A stretch of 50,579 bases of DNA from an uncultured Clostridium sp. Lineage in GTDB: Bacteria; Cyanobacteriota; Vampirovibrionia; Gastranaerophilales; Gastranaerophilaceae. The DNA lies in assembly GCA_958449715.1 (NCBI GenBank), contig CAUDIU010000001.1, forward strand, positions 1-50,579. The letters run 5' to 3'. This document shows positions 9,825-29,853 of the stretch, one piece after another; positions within the stretch are counted from its first letter, which is position 1, and each line of letters begins with the position of its first letter. The position numbers and the translations under genes are program-made. A model generated the notes under the pieces. The model saw nothing but the letters and a program-made list of their open reading frames with translations, did no database searches and had not been told where the DNA came from.

Positions 9825-9852
9825 AAAAGGAGATTTTAAAATCTCCTTTTTT
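9823..9852. terminator. bidirectional intrinsic terminator between the sigma gene and pilin 1
   Basis: Perfect palindrome AAAAAAGGAGATTTT|AAAATCTCCTTTTTT between convergent stops. Confidence 0.85.
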
Positions 9853-10587
9853 AATATGTCATTTCCCAATTGTCATTTAATAATTTACCAAAACAGCCAT
9901 GAATATTTACACCACCGCCAGCCATACAATATCTATTAAATTTTTCTTCTCTTAACTCTTTGGATAAAGGCACATTAGCATATCCTGTTACGTTATCATC
10001 TTCATCATTTTGACTATTCAAATCATCTAAGACCCCATTATTATATAAAAACATAACAAACATATCTCTTCCAATAATATTAGGGCCTTTAGCACCATTG
10101 GTATCAACCCATATTTCCATAATTAACCCTGATTTTGCATTATAATAAGTTGCAATAGAAGCACCACTAGCCAATACAAAATGACGTTTGCCGTACCAAA
10201 AAGTCACCTTATCTCCAGAAATTTTCTTATAATTCTCTTTTTCAGGGAAACACATTGATGCATCTGTACCACAATCTTTCACAATCTTGAAATAAGTCTT
10301 AACAAAATTTCCAGCAGCATCATCACTATTAAGACCTGCCTCAGATAAATTAATAGCATTTTTATCAGTCATTAATTGGACAGCTGCTTGTTGAAACTCA
10401 TTATAAACTTTATGTAGCTGAATGACATAAGACTTTCTTTGATAATTTTGCATCAAAGTAGGTACTGTCATTGCAGATACTACACCAATAATTCCTAAAG
10501 TTACTAAAACTTCGGCAAGGGTAAATCCCTTGTAGGAGCCTAAATTATGCCCCCCCCCCGATTTACATTATTTAACAATCCAAACAT
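9851..10587 (-). CDS. type IV pilin-like protein 1, frameshifted at a G10 tract in the leader (OFF as assembled)
   Basis: ATG 10587 after GAAAGGAGC gives MFGLLNNVNRGGGII*. One extra G gives MFGLLNNVNRGGGHNLGSYKG|FTLAEVLVTLGIIGVVSAMTVP..., continuous with ORF 9851..10471 (245 aa). Confidence 0.9.
10550..10559 (-). repeat. G10 homopolymer in the prepilin leader (pilin 1)
   Basis: C10 on the + strand at 10550-10559. Confidence 0.95.
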
Positions 10588-10614
10588 AAATGCTCCTTTC
10601 ATATTTATATAGTA

Positions 10615-10643
10615 ATTATAACAAATATGCCCGAACTTTTCAA
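10615..10643 (-). promoter_or_regulatory. sigma-70-type promoter of pilin 1 (TTGAAA-17-TATAAT, extended -10 TG)
   Basis: Minus strand TTGAAA agttcgggcatatttgt TATAAT. Confidence 0.75.
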
Positions 10644-10657
10644 GTTCGGGCATATTT
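10623..10657 (-). terminator. hairpin terminator of rpsA
   Basis: 16-bp inverted repeat AAATATGCCCGAACTT/AAGTTCGGGCATATTT just after the rpsA stop. Confidence 0.75.
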
Positions 10658-10670
10658 TATAAAAAATCAA

Positions 10671-27242: not shown

Positions 27243-29027
27243 ATGGCTAGAATTCAGCAGTTATCAAAGCATTTAATAAACCAAATTGCAGCGGGAGAAG
27301 TAATTGAAAGACCGGCATCTGTCGTAAAAGAGCTCGTAGAAAACTCTGTTGATGCAGGCTCATCTAAAATAAGTATTGAAATTAATAATGATTGTAGAGA
27401 TATAAGAGTTGCTGATAACGGCTGCGGTATTCACCCTGATGATATTATGCTCGCGTTTTCAAAACATGCAACAAGCAAAATCGCTTCAGATGAAGACTTA
27501 TTCAATATTCATACTCTCGGCTTTAGAGGAGAAGCACTATCTAGTATTATTTCTATTTCAAAATTAACTTGTACCACAAGAACTGCTGATTTTGATACAG
27601 GTACAAAAGTTAAATGTGAGAATTCTGAAGTAAAACAAGTTGAAACAGGCTGTGCAGTCGGAACTATTATGGACATCAAAGACCTCTTTTACAATCTTCC
27701 TGCACGTTTAAAATTCTTGAAAAGCCCAAATACTGAATTTTCATATATTCAAGAACTCGTTCAAGCAATAGCTCTTGCACATCCTGAATGTTCTTTTGAA
27801 CTTAAAAAGAACGGAAAAACAATGCTTAAAACAGCTGGGCAAAATAACCTTTTACAAACAATAAAAGAAGTTTACTCTGCAGATGTAATAGCGAATTTAA
27901 AAGAAGTCTTAAAAACTGACAATCTTGCTGGCCTAAAAATATCAGGATATGTAAGCACCCCTGATTATACTCGTTCAAGCAAAAAAAGTTATCATATCTA
28001 CATAAATTCAAGAACGGTTAAATGTCCGATTTTCCAAAAAGCAATAGATACAGCTTATAAAAGTCTCATTGCAAACGGCAAATATCCTTTTGTAGTATTG
28101 AACTTAGAAATTCCGCCATCAGATGTTGATGTGAATGTCCACCCAACAAAAAAAGAAGTAAGATACAAAAATACAAACCAAATATTCAATTTCATCTACA
28201 CTTCAATTCAAGCTGGACTTGCAAATTATGTTGAAAAAAATACAATTAATCCGCAACAATATACTCCAAATGAAAGTTTTCAACAAAACAATATTATTGA
28301 TTTTGTTCAGCCAAAAATGGAACAATCTGGAGATATTTTCTTTGATAAGCAAGACGATACAATCTATGTATCTGATAAATTAATGGAGCAAGAAACGAAA
28401 GAATTAAAAGAAACTCAAGTTGAACAAACAGAACAAAAACAATTCTTTATCCCTGTTGAAAAAGAAACTGAACCTGAAGAAAATATTGTAGGTCAATATA
28501 AAAACACATATATTCTTGTTGAAAAAGAGGACGGACTGGAAATTGTCGACCAGCACATAGCAGAAGAAAGATACATCTATGAAAAATTAATGTCTGAAAA
28601 AAATATTGTATCTCAAATGCTTTTTGTATCAGATGTTGTACCTGTATCAAGTTCAGAAGCCGAACTTATAAAAGAAAACATTGATAAATTTGAAAAATTC
28701 GGATATGGAATAGAGTTTTTGAAAGATAATGAACTTATTTTCCGCAAAGTACCTCAAATGATTGCAAAAGTAAATCCTAAAGAAATTTTAGCAGACATTT
28801 TAGAAAATATAGACGGAAACATTGACAGATTAGAAGAAAAAATTCTAATCACAACCTCTTGCAAAGCATCAGTAAAAGCCGGTCAAAAACTCTCAATTTG
28901 GCAAATGCAGGAAATTATCAAAAAATGGCGTACGACAAAAATGCCATACACCTGTCCACATGGTCGTCCAATTGTAAAATTCTTCCCGCATAAAGAAATT
29001 GCAGGATTTTTTCAAAGAAATTTCTAG
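27243..29027 (+). CDS. mutL: DNA mismatch repair protein MutL
   Basis: IAAGEVIERP, KHATSK, GFRGEAL, DVNVHPTK, endonuclease motif DQHIAEER, CPHGRP. Confidence 0.98.
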   Translation: MARIQQLSKHLINQIAAGEVIERPASVVKELVENSVDAGSSKISIEINNDCRDIRVADNGCGIHPDDIMLAFSKHATSKIASDEDLFNIHTLGFRGEALSSIISISKLTCTTRTADFDTGTKVKCENSEVKQVETGCAVGTIMDIKDLFYNLPARLKFLKSPNTEFSYIQELVQAIALAHPECSFELKKNGKTMLKTAGQNNLLQTIKEVYSADVIANLKEVLKTDNLAGLKISGYVSTPDYTRSSKKSYHIYINSRTVKCPIFQKAIDTAYKSLIANGKYPFVVLNLEIPPSDVDVNVHPTKKEVRYKNTNQIFNFIYTSIQAGLANYVEKNTINPQQYTPNESFQQNNIIDFVQPKMEQSGDIFFDKQDDTIYVSDKLMEQETKELKETQVEQTEQKQFFIPVEKETEPEENIVGQYKNTYILVEKEDGLEIVDQHIAEERYIYEKLMSEKNIVSQMLFVSDVVPVSSSEAELIKENIDKFEKFGYGIEFLKDNELIFRKVPQMIAKVNPKEILADILENIDGNIDRLEEKILITTSCKASVKAGQKLSIWQMQEIIKKWRTTKMPYTCPHGRPIVKFFPHKEIAGFFQRNF

Positions 29028-29030
29028 AAA

Positions 29031-29785
29031 TTACCAAGGATAATCCTTGGCAATTTTCCAACCATCTTTCATTATTACTGTCGGACAACTATAACCTATC
29101 ATATAATTACCGGCTGAAAACTTTTGAGTATTTATACATTCCCCAGCATAAACATGTCCTGCTTCTAATAAGTCCTCTCGATTTTTTGAATAAAATAAAG
29201 TTTTAAACCCCGAATCTGCAGTAGATTTATCTAATTCAAAATAAAAAACTTCTCTTCCTGAACGTGGATATTTAGGATTTTTTATATACGCATAGACTCT
29301 AGTCTGATTAGAAAAAGAATCCCCTCTTCTATAAAAACGAAAAGCAATAACATCACCAGTTTGTTTTACTAAATATCCACCTCCCATATAACCAGAAACT
29401 ACTCCTCTATTATGATATAAATGGTAAATTGGATTTATCCCCAAACACTCTCGAGTAGATCCACATTGTCCTGATTCTACTACTTTTATATACGGCTCTA
29501 TATAAGTTTGCACCCATTTATCTAATTCATCAACCCCATAATAATCCCAACCAGAAGGATCTCCATAATCAGCTCTTGCCATTTGAATAATTTGGTTTAA
29601 TTCATTGTAAGCCTTTTTTACACTGGTTGCTGTAGCTTGTTTTTGGTAATTAGCAATAAACGCAGGCATTGTCAAAGCCACTACAACACCAATTATTCCC
29701 AATGTAATTAATACTTCTGCGAGAGTAAATCCCTTATTAGGAGCGGTTAATCTGCCCCCCCCCCGAAATTATTAAACCTTTTCAT
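29031..29785 (-). CDS. type IV pilin-like protein 3, frameshifted at a G10 tract in the leader (OFF as assembled)
   Basis: ATG 29785 after GAAAGGAGC gives MKRFNNFGGGAD*. One extra G gives MKRFNNFGGGGRLTAPNKG|FTLAEVLITLGIIGVVVALTMP..., continuous with ORF 29031..29702 (251 aa). Confidence 0.9.
29755..29764 (-). repeat. G10 homopolymer in the prepilin leader (pilin 3)
   Basis: C10 on the + strand at 29755-29764. Confidence 0.95.
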
Positions 29786-29802
29786 AACTAGCTCCTTTCC
29801 AT

Positions 29803-29842
29803 AAAAAAACAAACTGCTATATAAATTATAGCAGTTTGTTTT
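29803..29842 (-). terminator. intrinsic terminator of aroF
   Basis: 16-bp inverted repeat AAAACAAACTGCTATA/TATAGCAGTTTGTTTT with a T-tail on the minus strand. Confidence 0.8.
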
Positions 29843-29853
29843 AATATTTTCAA
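29825..29853 (-). promoter_or_regulatory. sigma-70-type promoter of pilin 3 (TTGAAA-17-TATAAT, extended -10 TG)
   Basis: Minus strand TTGAAA atattaaaacaaactgc TATAAT. Confidence 0.7.

What the first reader, a model, noticed from the sequence alone, without database searches (positions are those of the whole stretch)
9851..29853. Dispersed family of poly-G-switched type IV pilin cassettes (candidate undescribed phase-variable pilin repertoire)
Seen: three pilin-like genes (9851-10587, 20407-21131, 29031-29785) each have GAAAGGAGC + ATG + 6-9 codons + exactly G10, then a class III signal G|FTLAEVL[VI]TLGIIG that is out of frame by the same amount. G11 or G8 is ON. G10 and G9 both stop within a few codons. 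In every locus the pilin frame has an in-frame TAA just upstream of the tract and no start codon before the cleavage site, so a full prepilin needs a length change or slippage. I saw no other G/C run of comparable length in this AT-rich window. Established: the leader is removed by PilD-type prepilin peptidase, so tract length would switch expression without changing the mature pilin. Homopolymer contingency loci are known (poly-G in the Neisseria pilC signal sequence, Campylobacter poly-G genes). Inference: this is a genome-wide bank of mostly OFF pilin variants toggled stochastically for adhesion, phage or immune escape. Alternatively, G insertion by transcriptional slippage or a -1 frameshift gives low-level expression. 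I am not aware of this being described for this lineage.
Basis: partly seen in the sequence, partly recalled or inferred. Interest (0 to 1): 0.92.

Follow-up and report, generated by a model that had tools for sequence, protein, structure and literature searches.

The report
Poly-G switches on pilin genes
An uncultured gut relative of cyanobacteria keeps dozens of pilus-protein genes one base out of frame behind a run of ten G's, which looks like a large bank of mostly-off switches for changing the cell surface.

Summary
The window holds exactly three G10 runs (0.05 expected). Each lies between a promoter/SD/ATG and a start-less prepilin ORF that needs +1 G to be in frame.

The genome is a Gastranaerophilales (Melainabacteria) MAG. 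It has 40 G/C runs of 9-11 and none of 7-8; 38 of the 40 sit in pilin leaders.

In 41 genomes of the genus I counted G8 78, G9 218, G10 1819, G11 168 and G12 57. Of 96 G10 pilin tracts, 87 need +1; of 12 G11 tracts, 6 are ON.

The OFF genes are under purifying selection (dN/dS median 0.27).

New here: the G-run follows the chromosome strand, not the gene. It is on the G-rich, presumably leading, strand in 39 of 40 tracts of a one-contig relative, and in 19 of 19 on one contig where 6 genes point the other way. This favours replication slippage over RNA or ribosome slippage.

Direct read-level proof is missing: only contigs were available. The mechanism is of a known kind; its scale, the uniform OFF setting and the strand rule are new. 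This scan noted the same kind before on other genomes.

The parts
10615..10643 (-). Promoter-like site of cassette 1 (TTGAAA-17-TATAAT with TG extension, 11 of 12)
10585..10600 (-). SD GAAAGGAGC (10600-10592) and ATG (10587-10585) of the cassette 1 leader ORF
   Evidence: read; frame analysis
10550..10559 (-). G10 tract 1. The ATG frame ends at TAG 10542-10540; the pilin frame is -1 (ON at G11 or G8)
   Evidence: One contig of run X1 carries one extra base here (depth 13 of 71.7)
9851..10549 (-). Prepilin-like ORF 1. Rest of the leader HNLGSYK, G(-1) codon 10528-10526, 232 codons, stop 9853-9851
   Evidence: AF2 model has a long N-terminal helix plus a beta sheet, pLDDT 85.7; best fold hits are pilins but weak
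21160..21188 (-). Promoter-like site of cassette 2 (TTGAAA-17-TATAAT with TG, 11 of 12)
21129..21144 (-). SD (21144-21136) and ATG (21131-21129) of the cassette 2 leader ORF
21094..21103 (-). G10 tract 2 (OFF; ON at G11 or G8)
20407..21093 (-). Prepilin-like ORF 2 (228 codons, stop 20409-20407), followed by a terminator-like hairpin at 20403-20375
20358..21193 (-). Whole cassette 2 as a presence/absence unit. Contigs of runs X1 and X3 join 20357 to 21194 with 17 other letters in between
   Evidence: tables 5 and 5c
29825..29853 (-). Promoter-like site of cassette 3 (TTGAAA-17-TATAAT with TG, 11 of 12). Its -10 lies inside a 16-bp-stem palindrome at 29806-29842
29783..29799 (-). SD (29799-29791) and ATG (29785-29783) of the cassette 3 leader ORF
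29755..29764 (-). G10 tract 3 (OFF; ON at G11 or G8)
29031..29754 (-). Prepilin-like ORF 3. Leader remainder RLTAPNK, G(-1) codon 29732-29730, 240 codons, stop 29033-29031
29031..29856 (-). Whole cassette 3 as a presence/absence unit. A contig of run X1 joins 29030 to 29857 with 19 other letters (a hairpin) in between
   Evidence: tables 5 and 5c
27243..29027 (+). mutL (mismatch repair endonuclease) next to cassette 3. It shows that the organism has MutL-type mismatch repair
   Evidence: TIGR00585, 528.8 bits

Best explanation
Each of the three loci is a self-contained 'switch cassette' for a type IV pilin-like protein.

Layout: a strong sigma-70-type promoter, an SD and ATG, 7-9 codons, a G10 run, the rest of a leader peptide, the prepilin-peptidase site G|FTLAEVL, a pilin-like body of about 215 residues, and a terminator.

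OFF state: with 10 G's the ribosome that starts at the ATG stops 5-8 nt past the run (a 12-16-residue peptide). The pilin ORF has no start of its own and is silent.

ON state (inferred): slipped-strand mispairing of the run during DNA replication adds one G. This fuses the ATG to the prepilin. The leader is then cut off by the genome's prepilin peptidase, so tract length changes expression but not the mature protein.

Scale: the three loci are members of a family of about 38 such cassettes in this genome and of some 10-100 in nearly every genome of the genus. G10 (OFF) is the resting state and a few loci per genome are at G11 (ON). The population would therefore display a small, changing subset of a large pilin repertoire.

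Strand rule: the G-run with its short conserved flank (YC-G10-CA-N7-8-GCT) is always laid on the same, G-rich (presumably leading) strand of the chromosome. On genes that point the other way the unit is inverted and reads as C10.

What is shown: the anatomy, the frames, the family, the length census, the selection on the ORFs and the strand rule.
What is inferred: that the switch is DNA slippage, that it is reversible and frequent, and what the pilins do.
For: Anatomy and frames
-.
- Genome: 40 G/C runs of 9-11 and none of 7-8, the gap in the length distribution typical of selected tracts. 38 of 40 lead into pilin-like ORFs that are open from the tract onward.
- In 113 distinct tract-plus-pilin loci from G000, 80 public loci, G015 and G043, 96 are G/C10. 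Of those, 87 need +1, 2 are ON, 2 are ambiguous, 1 needs -1 and 4 have no recognised start. Of 12 at length 11, 6 are ON. Of 4 at length 9, 3 need +2 or -1. The ON length is therefore 11 (or 8) almost throughout.

Lengths vary at the DNA level
- 41 genus genomes hold G8 78, G9 218, G10 1819, G11 168 and G12 57.
- One genome (G003) is shifted to longer runs: 12 G10, 15 G11 and 18 G12.
- Run X1 holds a G11 contig (depth 13) beside G10 (total depth 71.7) at tract 1.
- Assembled G11 tracts are in frame (3 of 3 in G015). A systematic undercall would not give this.

The genes are functional
- dN/dS of 26 paralogue pairs has a median of 0.27 (range 0.18-0.38) at dS of about 1, and the tract is kept in all of them.
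- A prepilin peptidase, 4 PilB-like ATPases and a secretin are present.

DNA-level logic
- In the one-contig relative G047, 39 of 40 tracts have the G-run on + in two blocks and on - in the block between. GC skew and the majority gene strand have the same sign in each of the four windows sampled, two per kind of block.
- On G043 contig C14, 19 of 19 G-runs are on +. 13 genes point + (G in the coding strand) and 6 point - (C in the coding strand).
- In G000, 37 of 40 G-runs are on the locally G-rich strand.
- Oriented by the G-run, both gene orientations share the flanks YC|CA and a GCT at +9 to +11: 65 of 85 and 20 of 25, against a background of 0.155 per 17 nt.

Precedent
- In Bifidobacterium breve a G-tract separates the signal-peptide ORF from the pilin ORF. 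The default is OFF, the switch was shown to be replication slippage, and G11 was far less stable than G10 (PMC9187656; sections 3 and 15 and passages read).
Against: - No read-level length distribution could be obtained. All 22 runs found are kept as contigs, and contigs drop rare variants. The single G11 contig in X1 could be a second strain, or a PCR or sequencing slippage product.
- The very tight peak at G10 (1819 of 2340 runs of 8-12) and the uniform 'need +1' offset are also what a programmed RNA-level or ribosomal event at a fixed-length tract would look like. For simple unbiased slippage one would expect more spread.
- The organism has MutL, which should lower slippage rates. MutS was not looked for.
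- The strand rule could reflect a replication-linked constraint on where G-runs are tolerated, whatever the switch mechanism.
- 3 of 8 poly-C-form genes in G000 lie where local skew is weakly of the wrong sign (-0.03 to -0.06, short contigs).
- About 7 of 104 loci with a recognised start do not fit ON = 11.
- Some long-leader loci carry an internal promoter-like site and an in-frame ATG, so they may not depend on the tract.
Confidence: 0.6

Rival explanations
1. Programmed recoding at a fixed G10/C10 tract. RNA polymerase slippage adds one G (or C) in a fraction of transcripts, or the ribosome shifts -1 on the run of GGG (or CCC) codons. Every cassette is then expressed at a low constitutive level from unchanged DNA.
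For: - The required shift is the same (+1 nt, or frame -1) in 87 of 96 G/C10 loci across species and assemblies.
- G10 makes up 1819 of 2340 runs of 8-12 in 41 genomes.
- The ORFs are under purifying selection although nominally OFF.
- A run of 10 is at least as long as the RNA:DNA hybrid (general knowledge, recalled).
- A 0-frame stop follows within 5-8 nt in 67 of 87 loci.
Against: - The tract occurs as G10 or as C10 in the mRNA depending only on which chromosome strand the gene is on. A signal read by RNA polymerase or the ribosome should be tied to the gene, not to the replichore.
- In an AT-rich genome (30% GC), A/T runs, the classic transcriptional slippage sites (recalled), would be the easy solution. 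Yet only G/C runs show the gap in the length distribution.
- In-frame G11 alleles exist: 6 of 12.
- The 0-frame stop is two or three codons past the run, not adjacent as in stop-stimulated shifts.
- No stimulatory RNA structure was looked for.
Confidence: 0.2
2. The conserved unit (YC-G10-CA-N7-8-GCT) is a site for a dedicated DNA transaction, such as a protein that binds or nicks it, or recombination or gene conversion between cassettes. It would not be merely a passive slippery run, and the frame offset would be a by-product.
For: - A short flank is conserved next to the run in both gene orientations, although it encodes different peptides in the two.
- The unit is strictly oriented on the chromosome.
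- Cassettes are gained or lost as whole units between strains.
- Leaders are mosaics of recurring modules.
Against: - No candidate enzyme was identified or searched for.
- The flank consensus is short and degenerate apart from YC|CA and GCT.
- The frame logic (start-less ORF, uniform offset, ON alleles at G11) is fully explained by a frameshift switch.
- The shared flank could be inherited from one inversion event and kept by gene conversion.
Confidence: 0.1
3. Assembly or sequencing artefact. The true tracts are G11 (in frame) and short-read consensus undercalls them by one, so the genes are ordinary and constitutively ON.
For: - Long G homopolymers are error-prone.
- Several tracts lie at contig ends, for example C10:13-22, C22:20-29 and C80:7624-7633.
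- In B. breve the annotated length differed from the modal length in culture (PMC9187656, passages).
Against: - The same mode is seen in 41 genomes, including a one-contig genome with 32 G10, 2 G11 and 6 G9.
- Runs of 11 and 12 are assembled (168 and 57).
- Assembled G11 tracts are in frame (G015 3 of 3; 6 of 12 overall). This would not hold if every call were one short.
- An orthologue (L013) is ON at G10 through loss of 2 nt next to the run.
Confidence: 0.05

Closest known systems
Bifidobacterium breve UCC2003 sortase-dependent pilus loci bbr_0113 and bbr_1889 (Penno et al. 2022, PMC9187656; abstract, sections 3 and 15 and passages read)
   Same: - An intragenic G10/G11 tract separates a short, well-expressed upstream ORF carrying the export signal from a start-less pilin ORF.
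- The default state is OFF.
- An in-frame tract gives pili.
- It is a gut commensal.
- The switch was shown to be replication slippage.
   Different: - Sortase (Sec/LPXTG) pili, not type IV pilins.
- Two loci per genome, not about 40-100.
- I saw no report there of a fixed orientation of the tract relative to replication, or of an inverted poly-C form.
- A high-GC actinobacterium.
Neisseria pilC1/pilC2 poly-G tract in the signal-peptide-coding region
   Same: A poly-G run in the 5' coding part of a pilus-associated gene. Frameshift ON/OFF by slipped-strand mispairing, with the mature protein unchanged.
   Different: - PilC is a tip adhesin or assembly factor, not a pilin.
- One or two loci.
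- Tract lengths are widely spread.
- A Sec signal peptide, not a class III (prepilin) leader.
Campylobacter jejuni / Helicobacter poly-G/C 'phasome' (contingency loci; PMC6097035 seen as abstract in a search listing; details recalled)
   Same: An AT-rich small genome with tens of G/C runs of 8 or more and a gap at intermediate lengths; stochastic ON/OFF of surface determinants.
   Different: - There the genes are mostly glycan, flagellar-modification and restriction genes of unrelated families, with mixed ON lengths and mixed ON/OFF states.
- Those organisms lack MutS/MutL repair (recalled).
- Here there is one paralogous family with a shared leader, one ON length, about 80% at the same OFF length, and MutL present.
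Neisseria pilE/pilS antigenic variation (recalled; PMC13017665 abstract seen in a listing)
   Same: A large bank of silent pilin variants, of which few are expressed at a time.
   Different: The silent copies there are promoter-less fragments moved into one expression site by gene conversion. Here every copy is a complete cassette with its own promoter, SD, start and terminator, silenced only by one base.
Programmed transcriptional slippage and -1 ribosomal frameshifting sites (for example dnaX, IS elements, mxiE; recalled; the review Atkins et al. 2016 was seen only in the reference list of PMC9187656)
   Same: A conserved homopolymer of fixed length with a conserved frame offset between two ORFs.
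   Different: Known bacterial cases mostly use A/T runs or X XXY YYZ heptamers tied to the gene's strand. Here the run is G or C according to the replichore.

Membership tests
Type IV pilin / pseudopilin (class III signal peptide proteins) | N-terminal G|F(T/S)L(x)E cleavage/methylation motif followed by a hydrophobic helix | tested here: met
   PF07963 at 25.7-26.6 bits (cut-off 21.2) and TIGR02532 at 22.8-24.7 bits (cut-off 16.3) for all three. The AF2 model has helix 11-62.
Type IV pilin / pseudopilin (class III signal peptide proteins) | Pilin fold: long alpha-1 helix packed on an antiparallel beta sheet | tested here: inconclusive
   The model (pLDDT 85.7) shows the helix plus 5 strands. 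Top Foldseek hits are pilins (FimA 3sok, E 0.016, prob 0.96; PAK pilin; gonococcal pilus), but 0 hits reach E <= 0.001 and TM is 0.32-0.51.
Type IV pilin / pseudopilin (class III signal peptide proteins) | Cognate machinery in the genome (prepilin peptidase, assembly ATPase, secretin) | tested here: met
   PF01478 at G000:C22:4002-4394 (43.2 bits); 4 PF00437 matches over the cut-off; PF00263 at C9:34989-35504.
Type IV pilin / pseudopilin (class III signal peptide proteins) | Assembly into a filament; major or minor pilin role | not testable with these tools
   No equivalog model reached its cut-off (best was ComGE, 32 bits against 49).
Simple-sequence-repeat contingency locus (slipped-strand phase variation) | Hypermutable repeat inside the ORF or promoter, over-represented relative to composition | tested here: met
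   Three G10 runs against 0.05 expected. The genome has no G/C runs of 7-8 but 40 of 9-11.
Simple-sequence-repeat contingency locus (slipped-strand phase variation) | A change of repeat number switches the reading frame ON or OFF | tested here: met
   In silico only: G10 is OFF in 87 of 96 and G11 is ON in 6 of 12.
Simple-sequence-repeat contingency locus (slipped-strand phase variation) | Repeat number differs between cells or strains at the same locus | tested here: inconclusive
   One G11 contig beside G10 at tract 1 in run X1 (13 of 71.7 depth). Lengths of 8-12 occur across genomes. No raw reads; no row for tracts 2 and 3 among the rows shown.
Simple-sequence-repeat contingency locus (slipped-strand phase variation) | High-frequency, reversible switching measured in a clonal population | not testable with these tools
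   The organism is uncultured; only contigs of metagenome runs were available.
Programmed transcriptional slippage / -1 ribosomal frameshift | Conserved slippery run with a conserved frame offset | tested here: met
Programmed transcriptional slippage / -1 ribosomal frameshift | Signal tied to the transcribed strand of the gene | tested here: not met
   The run is G or C in the mRNA according to the chromosome strand. On G043:C14, 13 are G-form and 6 are C-form, with all G-runs on +; in G047, 39 of 40 follow the rule.
Programmed transcriptional slippage / -1 ribosomal frameshift | RNA or protein heterogeneity from homogeneous DNA | not testable with these tools
   The RNA run X17 gave only contigs, at depths of 1.7-13 over the three loci.

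The most novel reading that the evidence does not exclude
The cassettes form a replication-oriented 'pilin phasome'. This would be a lineage-specific system of 10-100 or more default-OFF pilin genes per genome, in which a conserved DNA unit (YC-G10-CA-N7-8-GCT) is kept on the leading strand. The reason would be that the rate or the direction (+1 against -1) of switching is set by which polymerase or strand copies the run, or by a dedicated factor that recognises the unit. The cell would then control how often and which way its surface repertoire changes. That would make strand placement a designed parameter of a contingency locus, which I did not find described.
Probability: 0.3. Interest if true: 0.9.

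Novelty: new variant of a known kind. Interest (0 to 1): 0.78.

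Why it matters
Gastranaerophilales are widespread, uncultured, non-photosynthetic relatives of cyanobacteria in animal and human guts, and almost nothing is known of how they meet the host.

**Investment in the surface.** About 70 pilin-like genes sit in a 1.8-Mb genome, and half of them are behind one-base switches. The lineage therefore appears to invest heavily in a variable surface filament, for adhesion, phage avoidance or escape from antibody. This offers a handle for experiments: tract lengths could be read in metagenomes as a record of which pilins are ON in which host.

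**A natural data set for slippage.** For the study of phase variation, the lineage offers about 1,800 independent G10 tracts with one ON length. That allows mutational bias to be separated from selection.

**The strand rule.** The tract follows the replichore and flips to poly-C on reversed genes. This is a testable claim about how replication asymmetry shapes or is used by contingency loci.

**Annotation.** These genes will be called as truncated or start-less ORFs, or missed, by standard pipelines.

Tried and rejected
**Reads.** The look-up of sequencing runs gave 22 runs, all kept as Logan contigs. The one read-laying run (X1, X2, X3 and RNA run X17) therefore cannot give tract-length spectra, transcript ends or RNA-against-DNA differences. 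X17 covered the three loci at depths of only 1.7-13, and I draw nothing from it. 14 further indel rows were not shown, so 'no variant at tracts 2 and 3' cannot be claimed.

**dnaA as an origin marker.** In G047 dnaA lies at 544.5 kb, and in G043 in the middle of contig C14. Neither is at a strand switch. I therefore used GC skew and gene-strand bias instead. Calling the G-rich strand 'leading' rests on the usual convention, not on a mapped origin.

**Fold search.** Foldseek against PDB gave no hit at E <= 0.001. The head domain remains unassigned.

**Non-pilin tract.** Pfam on the one non-pilin tract gene (G000:C128, 372 aa) and on its neighbour gave no family.

**Stop as a frameshift stimulator.** I considered that the conserved TTTAR after the tract acts as a frameshift-stimulating stop. 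I rejected this as a stimulator because the stop is 2-3 codons past the run.

**Pseudogenes.** I considered that the OFF genes are decaying pseudogenes. I rejected this: 38 of 38 are open from the tract onward and dN/dS is 0.18-0.38.

**This scan's notes.** Look-ups by place and by sequence returned nothing.

**Literature.** Eight searches found no paper on poly-G or phase variation in Melainabacteria/Gastranaerophilales pilins, nor on replichore-oriented phase-variable tracts. Subscription journals and supplements were not searchable.

Full report
**1. The observation**

A search for runs of eight G's finds nine overlapping matches. They are three runs of exactly ten G's, all on the - strand: 10550-10559, 21094-21103 and 29755-29764. 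Dinucleotide-preserving shuffles give a mean of 0.05, and none of 100 reaches nine.

Reading the - strand, each run lies 7-9 codons after an ATG that is preceded by GAAAGGAGC. In the ATG frame a stop follows within three codons of the run; at locus 1 this is TAG 10542-10540. The frame one base back (-1) is closed by a TAA just upstream of the run and has no ATG, GTG or TTG before the motif G|FTLAEVL. It then runs open for 232, 228 and 240 codons. G11 or G8 would join the ATG to the long ORF.

The three products match the N-terminal methylation motif of prepilins: PF07963 at 25.7-26.6 bits against a cut-off of 21.2, and TIGR02532. Each locus also has an 11-of-12 promoter-like site, TTGAAA-17-TATAAT with a TG extension, just upstream at 10643-10615, 21188-21160 and 29853-29825.

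**2. The genome and the organism**

The window is contig 1 of a 1.81-Mb, 143-contig, 30.4% GC assembly. Relatives of the pilin found in public genomes are nearly all titled Candidatus Gastranaerophilales or Melainabacteria, that is, uncultured gut relatives of cyanobacteria.

A/T homopolymers in the genome fall off smoothly up to 10. G/C homopolymers stop at 6 and reappear as 2 of length 9, 34 of length 10 and 4 of length 11.

Of these 40 tracts:
- 38 are followed by a pilin-like ORF that is open from the tract onward.
- One lies at a contig end.
- One lies in an unrelated 372-aa ORF without a Pfam family.

The genome holds about 72 pilin-like genes. 38 have a tract. About 33 have an ordinary SD, ATG and a short leader such as MKK|AFTLAE (77 motif hits, of which 6 without a tract are short or cut ORFs that I discount). 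A prepilin peptidase, four PilB-like ATPases over the cut-off and a secretin are present.

An AlphaFold2 model of pilin 1, built on an alignment of 31 sequences, has pLDDT 85.7, with a helix at 11-62 packed on a beta sheet. The best Foldseek hits in the PDB are type IV pilins (FimA 3sok, E 0.016), but none reaches E 0.001. The pilin fold is therefore likely but not proven, and the head domain is unassigned.

**3. One family, one ON length, one resting state**

I pooled all distinct tracts that lead into a pilin motif: 38 from G000, tracts in the 80 public loci, and samples from two genus relatives (G015, G043). This gave 113 loci.

| Tract length | Loci | State |
|---|---|---|
| 10 | 96 | 87 need +1; 2 in frame; 2 ambiguous; 1 needs -1; 4 without a recognisable SD-start |
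| 11 | 12 | 6 in frame; 1 ambiguous; 2 need +1; 2 need -1; 1 without a start |
| 9 | 4 | 3 need +2 or -1; 1 needs +1 |
| 12 | 1 | no recognisable start |

The ON length is thus 11 (or 8) in about 96 of 104 loci with a recognised start.

The 0-frame stop begins 5-8 nt after the run in 67 of the 87 OFF loci.

Leaders between tract and cleavage site range from 16 to 333 nt, and 55 are 60 nt or longer. In those 55 the other two frames are closed in every case. This set was selected for an open pilin frame. The unbiased figure is that 38 of 38 assessable tracts in G000 are open.

**4. Census in relatives**

In 41 genomes of the genus (G000 included), exact runs flanked by a non-G number:

| Run | Count |
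|---|---|
| G8 | 78 |
| G9 | 218 |
| G10 | 1819 |
| G11 | 168 |
| G12 | 57 |

- 40 of 41 genomes have G10 runs, up to 100 each.
- These counts are of runs, not of pilin-linked runs, and they miss runs at contig ends.
- One genome (G003) is shifted to longer runs: 12 G10, 15 G11 and 18 G12.

With the flanks included (YC-G10-CR), matches occur as follows:
- 27 of 28 other genus genomes, with tens of matches each.
- 10 of 58 genomes of other genera of the family, with 1-12 matches each.
- 0 of 34 genomes of other families of the order.
- The reversed control pattern gives 0-2 matches per genome.

**5. Are the OFF genes alive?**

For the 26 pairs of tract-bearing paralogues in G000 with at least 60% identity, Nei-Gojobori dN/dS has a median of 0.27 (range 0.18-0.38). 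Beyond codon 35 the median is 0.34. dS is about 0.4-1.7. The genes are old, under purifying selection, and all keep the tract. They must therefore be expressed often enough to be selected, and the tract itself is maintained.

**6. Evidence that the length changes in DNA**

- Lengths from 8 to 12 occur in assemblies, and assembled G11 tracts are in frame (3 of 3 in G015). This also argues that lengths are not systematically undercalled.
- An orthologue of a G000 cassette in another MAG (L013) is in frame at G10 because two bases next to the run are missing.
- One G000 paralogue (C61) has the run interrupted as GGTGGGGGG.
- In run X1 one contig carries an extra base at tract 1, at depth 13 of 71.7. 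This may be a subpopulation, a second strain or a slippage artefact.
- No raw reads were available: all 22 runs are kept as contigs.

**7. The new finding: the tract follows the chromosome, not the gene**

*The poly-C form.* About a fifth of the cassettes carry C10 instead of G10 in the coding strand (8 of 38 in G000).

*Strand within contigs.* In the lists of matches, the strand of the G-run is constant within contigs.
- On contig C14 of G043 (215 kb) all 19 tracts fetched have the G-run on the + strand. 13 of the genes point + (G form) and 6 point - (C form).
- All 16 with a start found within 60 nt need +1.

*The one-contig relative G047 (1.87 Mb).* Its 40 tracts of 9-11 lie as follows:

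| Region | G-run strand | Tracts |
|---|---|---|
| 313 to 238,604 | + | 11 |
| 257,170 to 1,229,043 | - | 15, plus one exception (+) at 653,876 |
| 1,358,359 to 1,817,071 | + | 13 |

- 20-kb samples of the + blocks have GC skew +0.10 and +0.14 and most long ORFs on +.
- Samples of the - block have skew -0.12 and -0.18 and most long ORFs on -.
- The skew changes sign near 240-246 kb.
- A C-form gene in the - block obeys the rule. The single exception is a G-form gene pointing against the block.

*G000.* The G-run is on the locally G-rich strand in 37 of 40 tracts: 30 of 30 G-form and 5 of 8 C-form. The three misses have weak skew on short contigs.

*Which strand this is.* By the usual convention the G-rich, gene-rich strand is the leading strand. 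I did not map an origin, and dnaA is not at a switch point.

*The shared flank.* Oriented by the G-run, both forms share the flanks YC|CA and a GCT at +9 to +11: 65 of 85 G-form and 20 of 25 C-form, against a background of 0.155 for GCT anywhere in 17 nt. This flank encodes different peptides in the two forms. A short DNA unit thus exists in both orientations relative to the gene and in one orientation relative to the replichore.

**8. What this means for the mechanism**

A signal read by RNA polymerase or by the ribosome should be tied to the gene's strand. A signal whose behaviour depends on replication can be tied to the replichore. Two other points add to this. In a 30% GC genome the selected runs are G/C and not A/T. 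There is also the B. breve precedent, where a G-tract between signal-peptide ORF and pilin ORF is OFF by default, switches by replication slippage, and G11 is far less stable than G10 (PMC9187656).

I therefore put slipped-strand phase variation first (0.6).

The tight peak at G10 can be explained in two steps. All cassettes inherit ON = 11 by descent. G10 is the nearest OFF state and is more stable than G11. A population consensus then shows G10 at most loci and G11 at a few: 2 clearly ON in G000 and at least 3 in G015.

Programmed RNA-level or ribosomal recoding remains possible (0.2). It would fit the uniform offset.

The strand rule might also be only a constraint on where G-runs are tolerated.

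A dedicated DNA transaction at the conserved unit (0.1) and an assembly undercall (0.05) are the other rivals.

**9. Cassettes as units**

Contigs of other runs join 20357 to 21194 (X1 and X3) and 29030 to 29857 (X1), with 17 and 19 other letters in between. Cassettes 2 and 3, from promoter to terminator, are thus present or absent between strains at otherwise conserved sites.

Many leaders in relatives are mosaics. They contain:
- an internal promoter-like site with a palindrome and an in-frame ATG
- a truncated GFTLAE followed by GATHVA
- repeat elements kept in frame

Loci with an internal start may not depend on the tract.

**10. Comparison and novelty**

The mechanism is of a known kind (Neisseria pilC, B. 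breve sortase pili, Campylobacter phasome). The following I did not find in print:
- the lineage
- the protein class (type IV pilin-like genes themselves)
- the scale
- the single ON length with about 80% of tracts at one OFF length
- the replichore rule with an inverted poly-C form

Eight full-text searches found no paper on them. Subscription journals and supplements were not covered.

Earlier notes of this scan describe the same poly-G pilin leader cassette on other genomes. None mentions the orientation rule.

Noticed in passing
G000:C128:1541-1550 (locus L126, ORF 461-1579 on the - strand): The one G10 tract that is not in a pilin gene lies 29 nt after the ATG of a 372-aa ORF and is in frame (ON). 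Neither this ORF nor the 445-aa ORF upstream has a Pfam family. An earlier scan note reports G-tracts in radical-SAM glycan genes of a related genome.
   Followed up: partly
G000:C61, about 4540-4581: A pilin leader of the usual type has its run interrupted (GGTGGGGGG, 9 nt). The pilin is then in frame with the ATG inside the conserved AATGTC that precedes the tract. This may be a 'locked' allele, and it suggests that in some leaders a second, SD-less start makes lengths of 9 or 12 weakly ON.
   Followed up: partly
Locus L013 compared with G000:C22:11863-11872: A near-identical orthologue in another MAG is in frame at G10 because the two bases (CG) that follow the run in G000 are missing.
   Followed up: no
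window 24234-25221: Contigs of runs X1 and X3 skip 988 bases here, with 16 other letters in between. This removes the 322-aa ORF at 24252-25220, so it is another presence/absence unit, not a pilin.
   Followed up: no
window 29806-29842: A perfect 16-bp-stem palindrome encloses the -10 box of the cassette 3 promoter. It is operator-like, or a 5' hairpin if transcribed. Similar short palindromes (GTGAT-N7-ATCAC) follow the -10 of internal or tract-less pilin promoters in G000 and relatives.
   Followed up: no
G000 loci C2:12391, C2:13258, C10:26776, C15:19316, C70:2186, C80:7624, C126:195; loci L008, L009, L012, L019, L024: Long leaders contain a conserved TTGnnn-17-TGTTATAAT site, with an ATG about 7 nt after the -10 box that is in the pilin frame (MEHH...K|GFTLAE). 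This could give a leaderless mRNA and tract-independent expression.
   Followed up: no
Loci L005, L015, L021, L034, L035, L064, L073, L074, L077, L078; G000:C2:13258, C82:182, C126:195: A recurring module GGTGCTACGCACGTAGCC (reads GATHVA, and contains the palindrome GCTACG..CGTAGC) follows a truncated GFTLAE upstream of the real pilin start, or precedes the tract. Its role is unknown.
   Followed up: no
G015 loci L081, L091, L096, L097, L100: Leaders of 75-100 codons, made of repeat-like modules (for example ...VIAHLLRNLEF.LKRSRT...), stay open in the pilin frame. An earlier scan note describes the same on another genome.
   Followed up: partly
Genome G003 (same genus): An outlier in tract length: 12 G10, 15 G11 and 18 G12, and many longer runs (329 sliding G9 matches). 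This could be a lineage with different slippage or repair, or a different sequencing method.
   Followed up: no
G000 contig ends: C10:13-22, C22:20-29, C34:62-71, C80:7624-7633, C82:182-191: Several contigs break at or within about 200 nt of a tract, so the repeated leader cassettes and runs limit assembly. Some relatives show long poly-G at contig ends (for example G015:C14:1-32), which are probably sequencing artefacts.
   Followed up: no
window 12772-15417 (- strand): An 881-aa ORF with no NCBIfam hit and only sub-threshold Pfam hits (DUF1771, 26.3 bits against a cut-off of 28.7).
   Followed up: no
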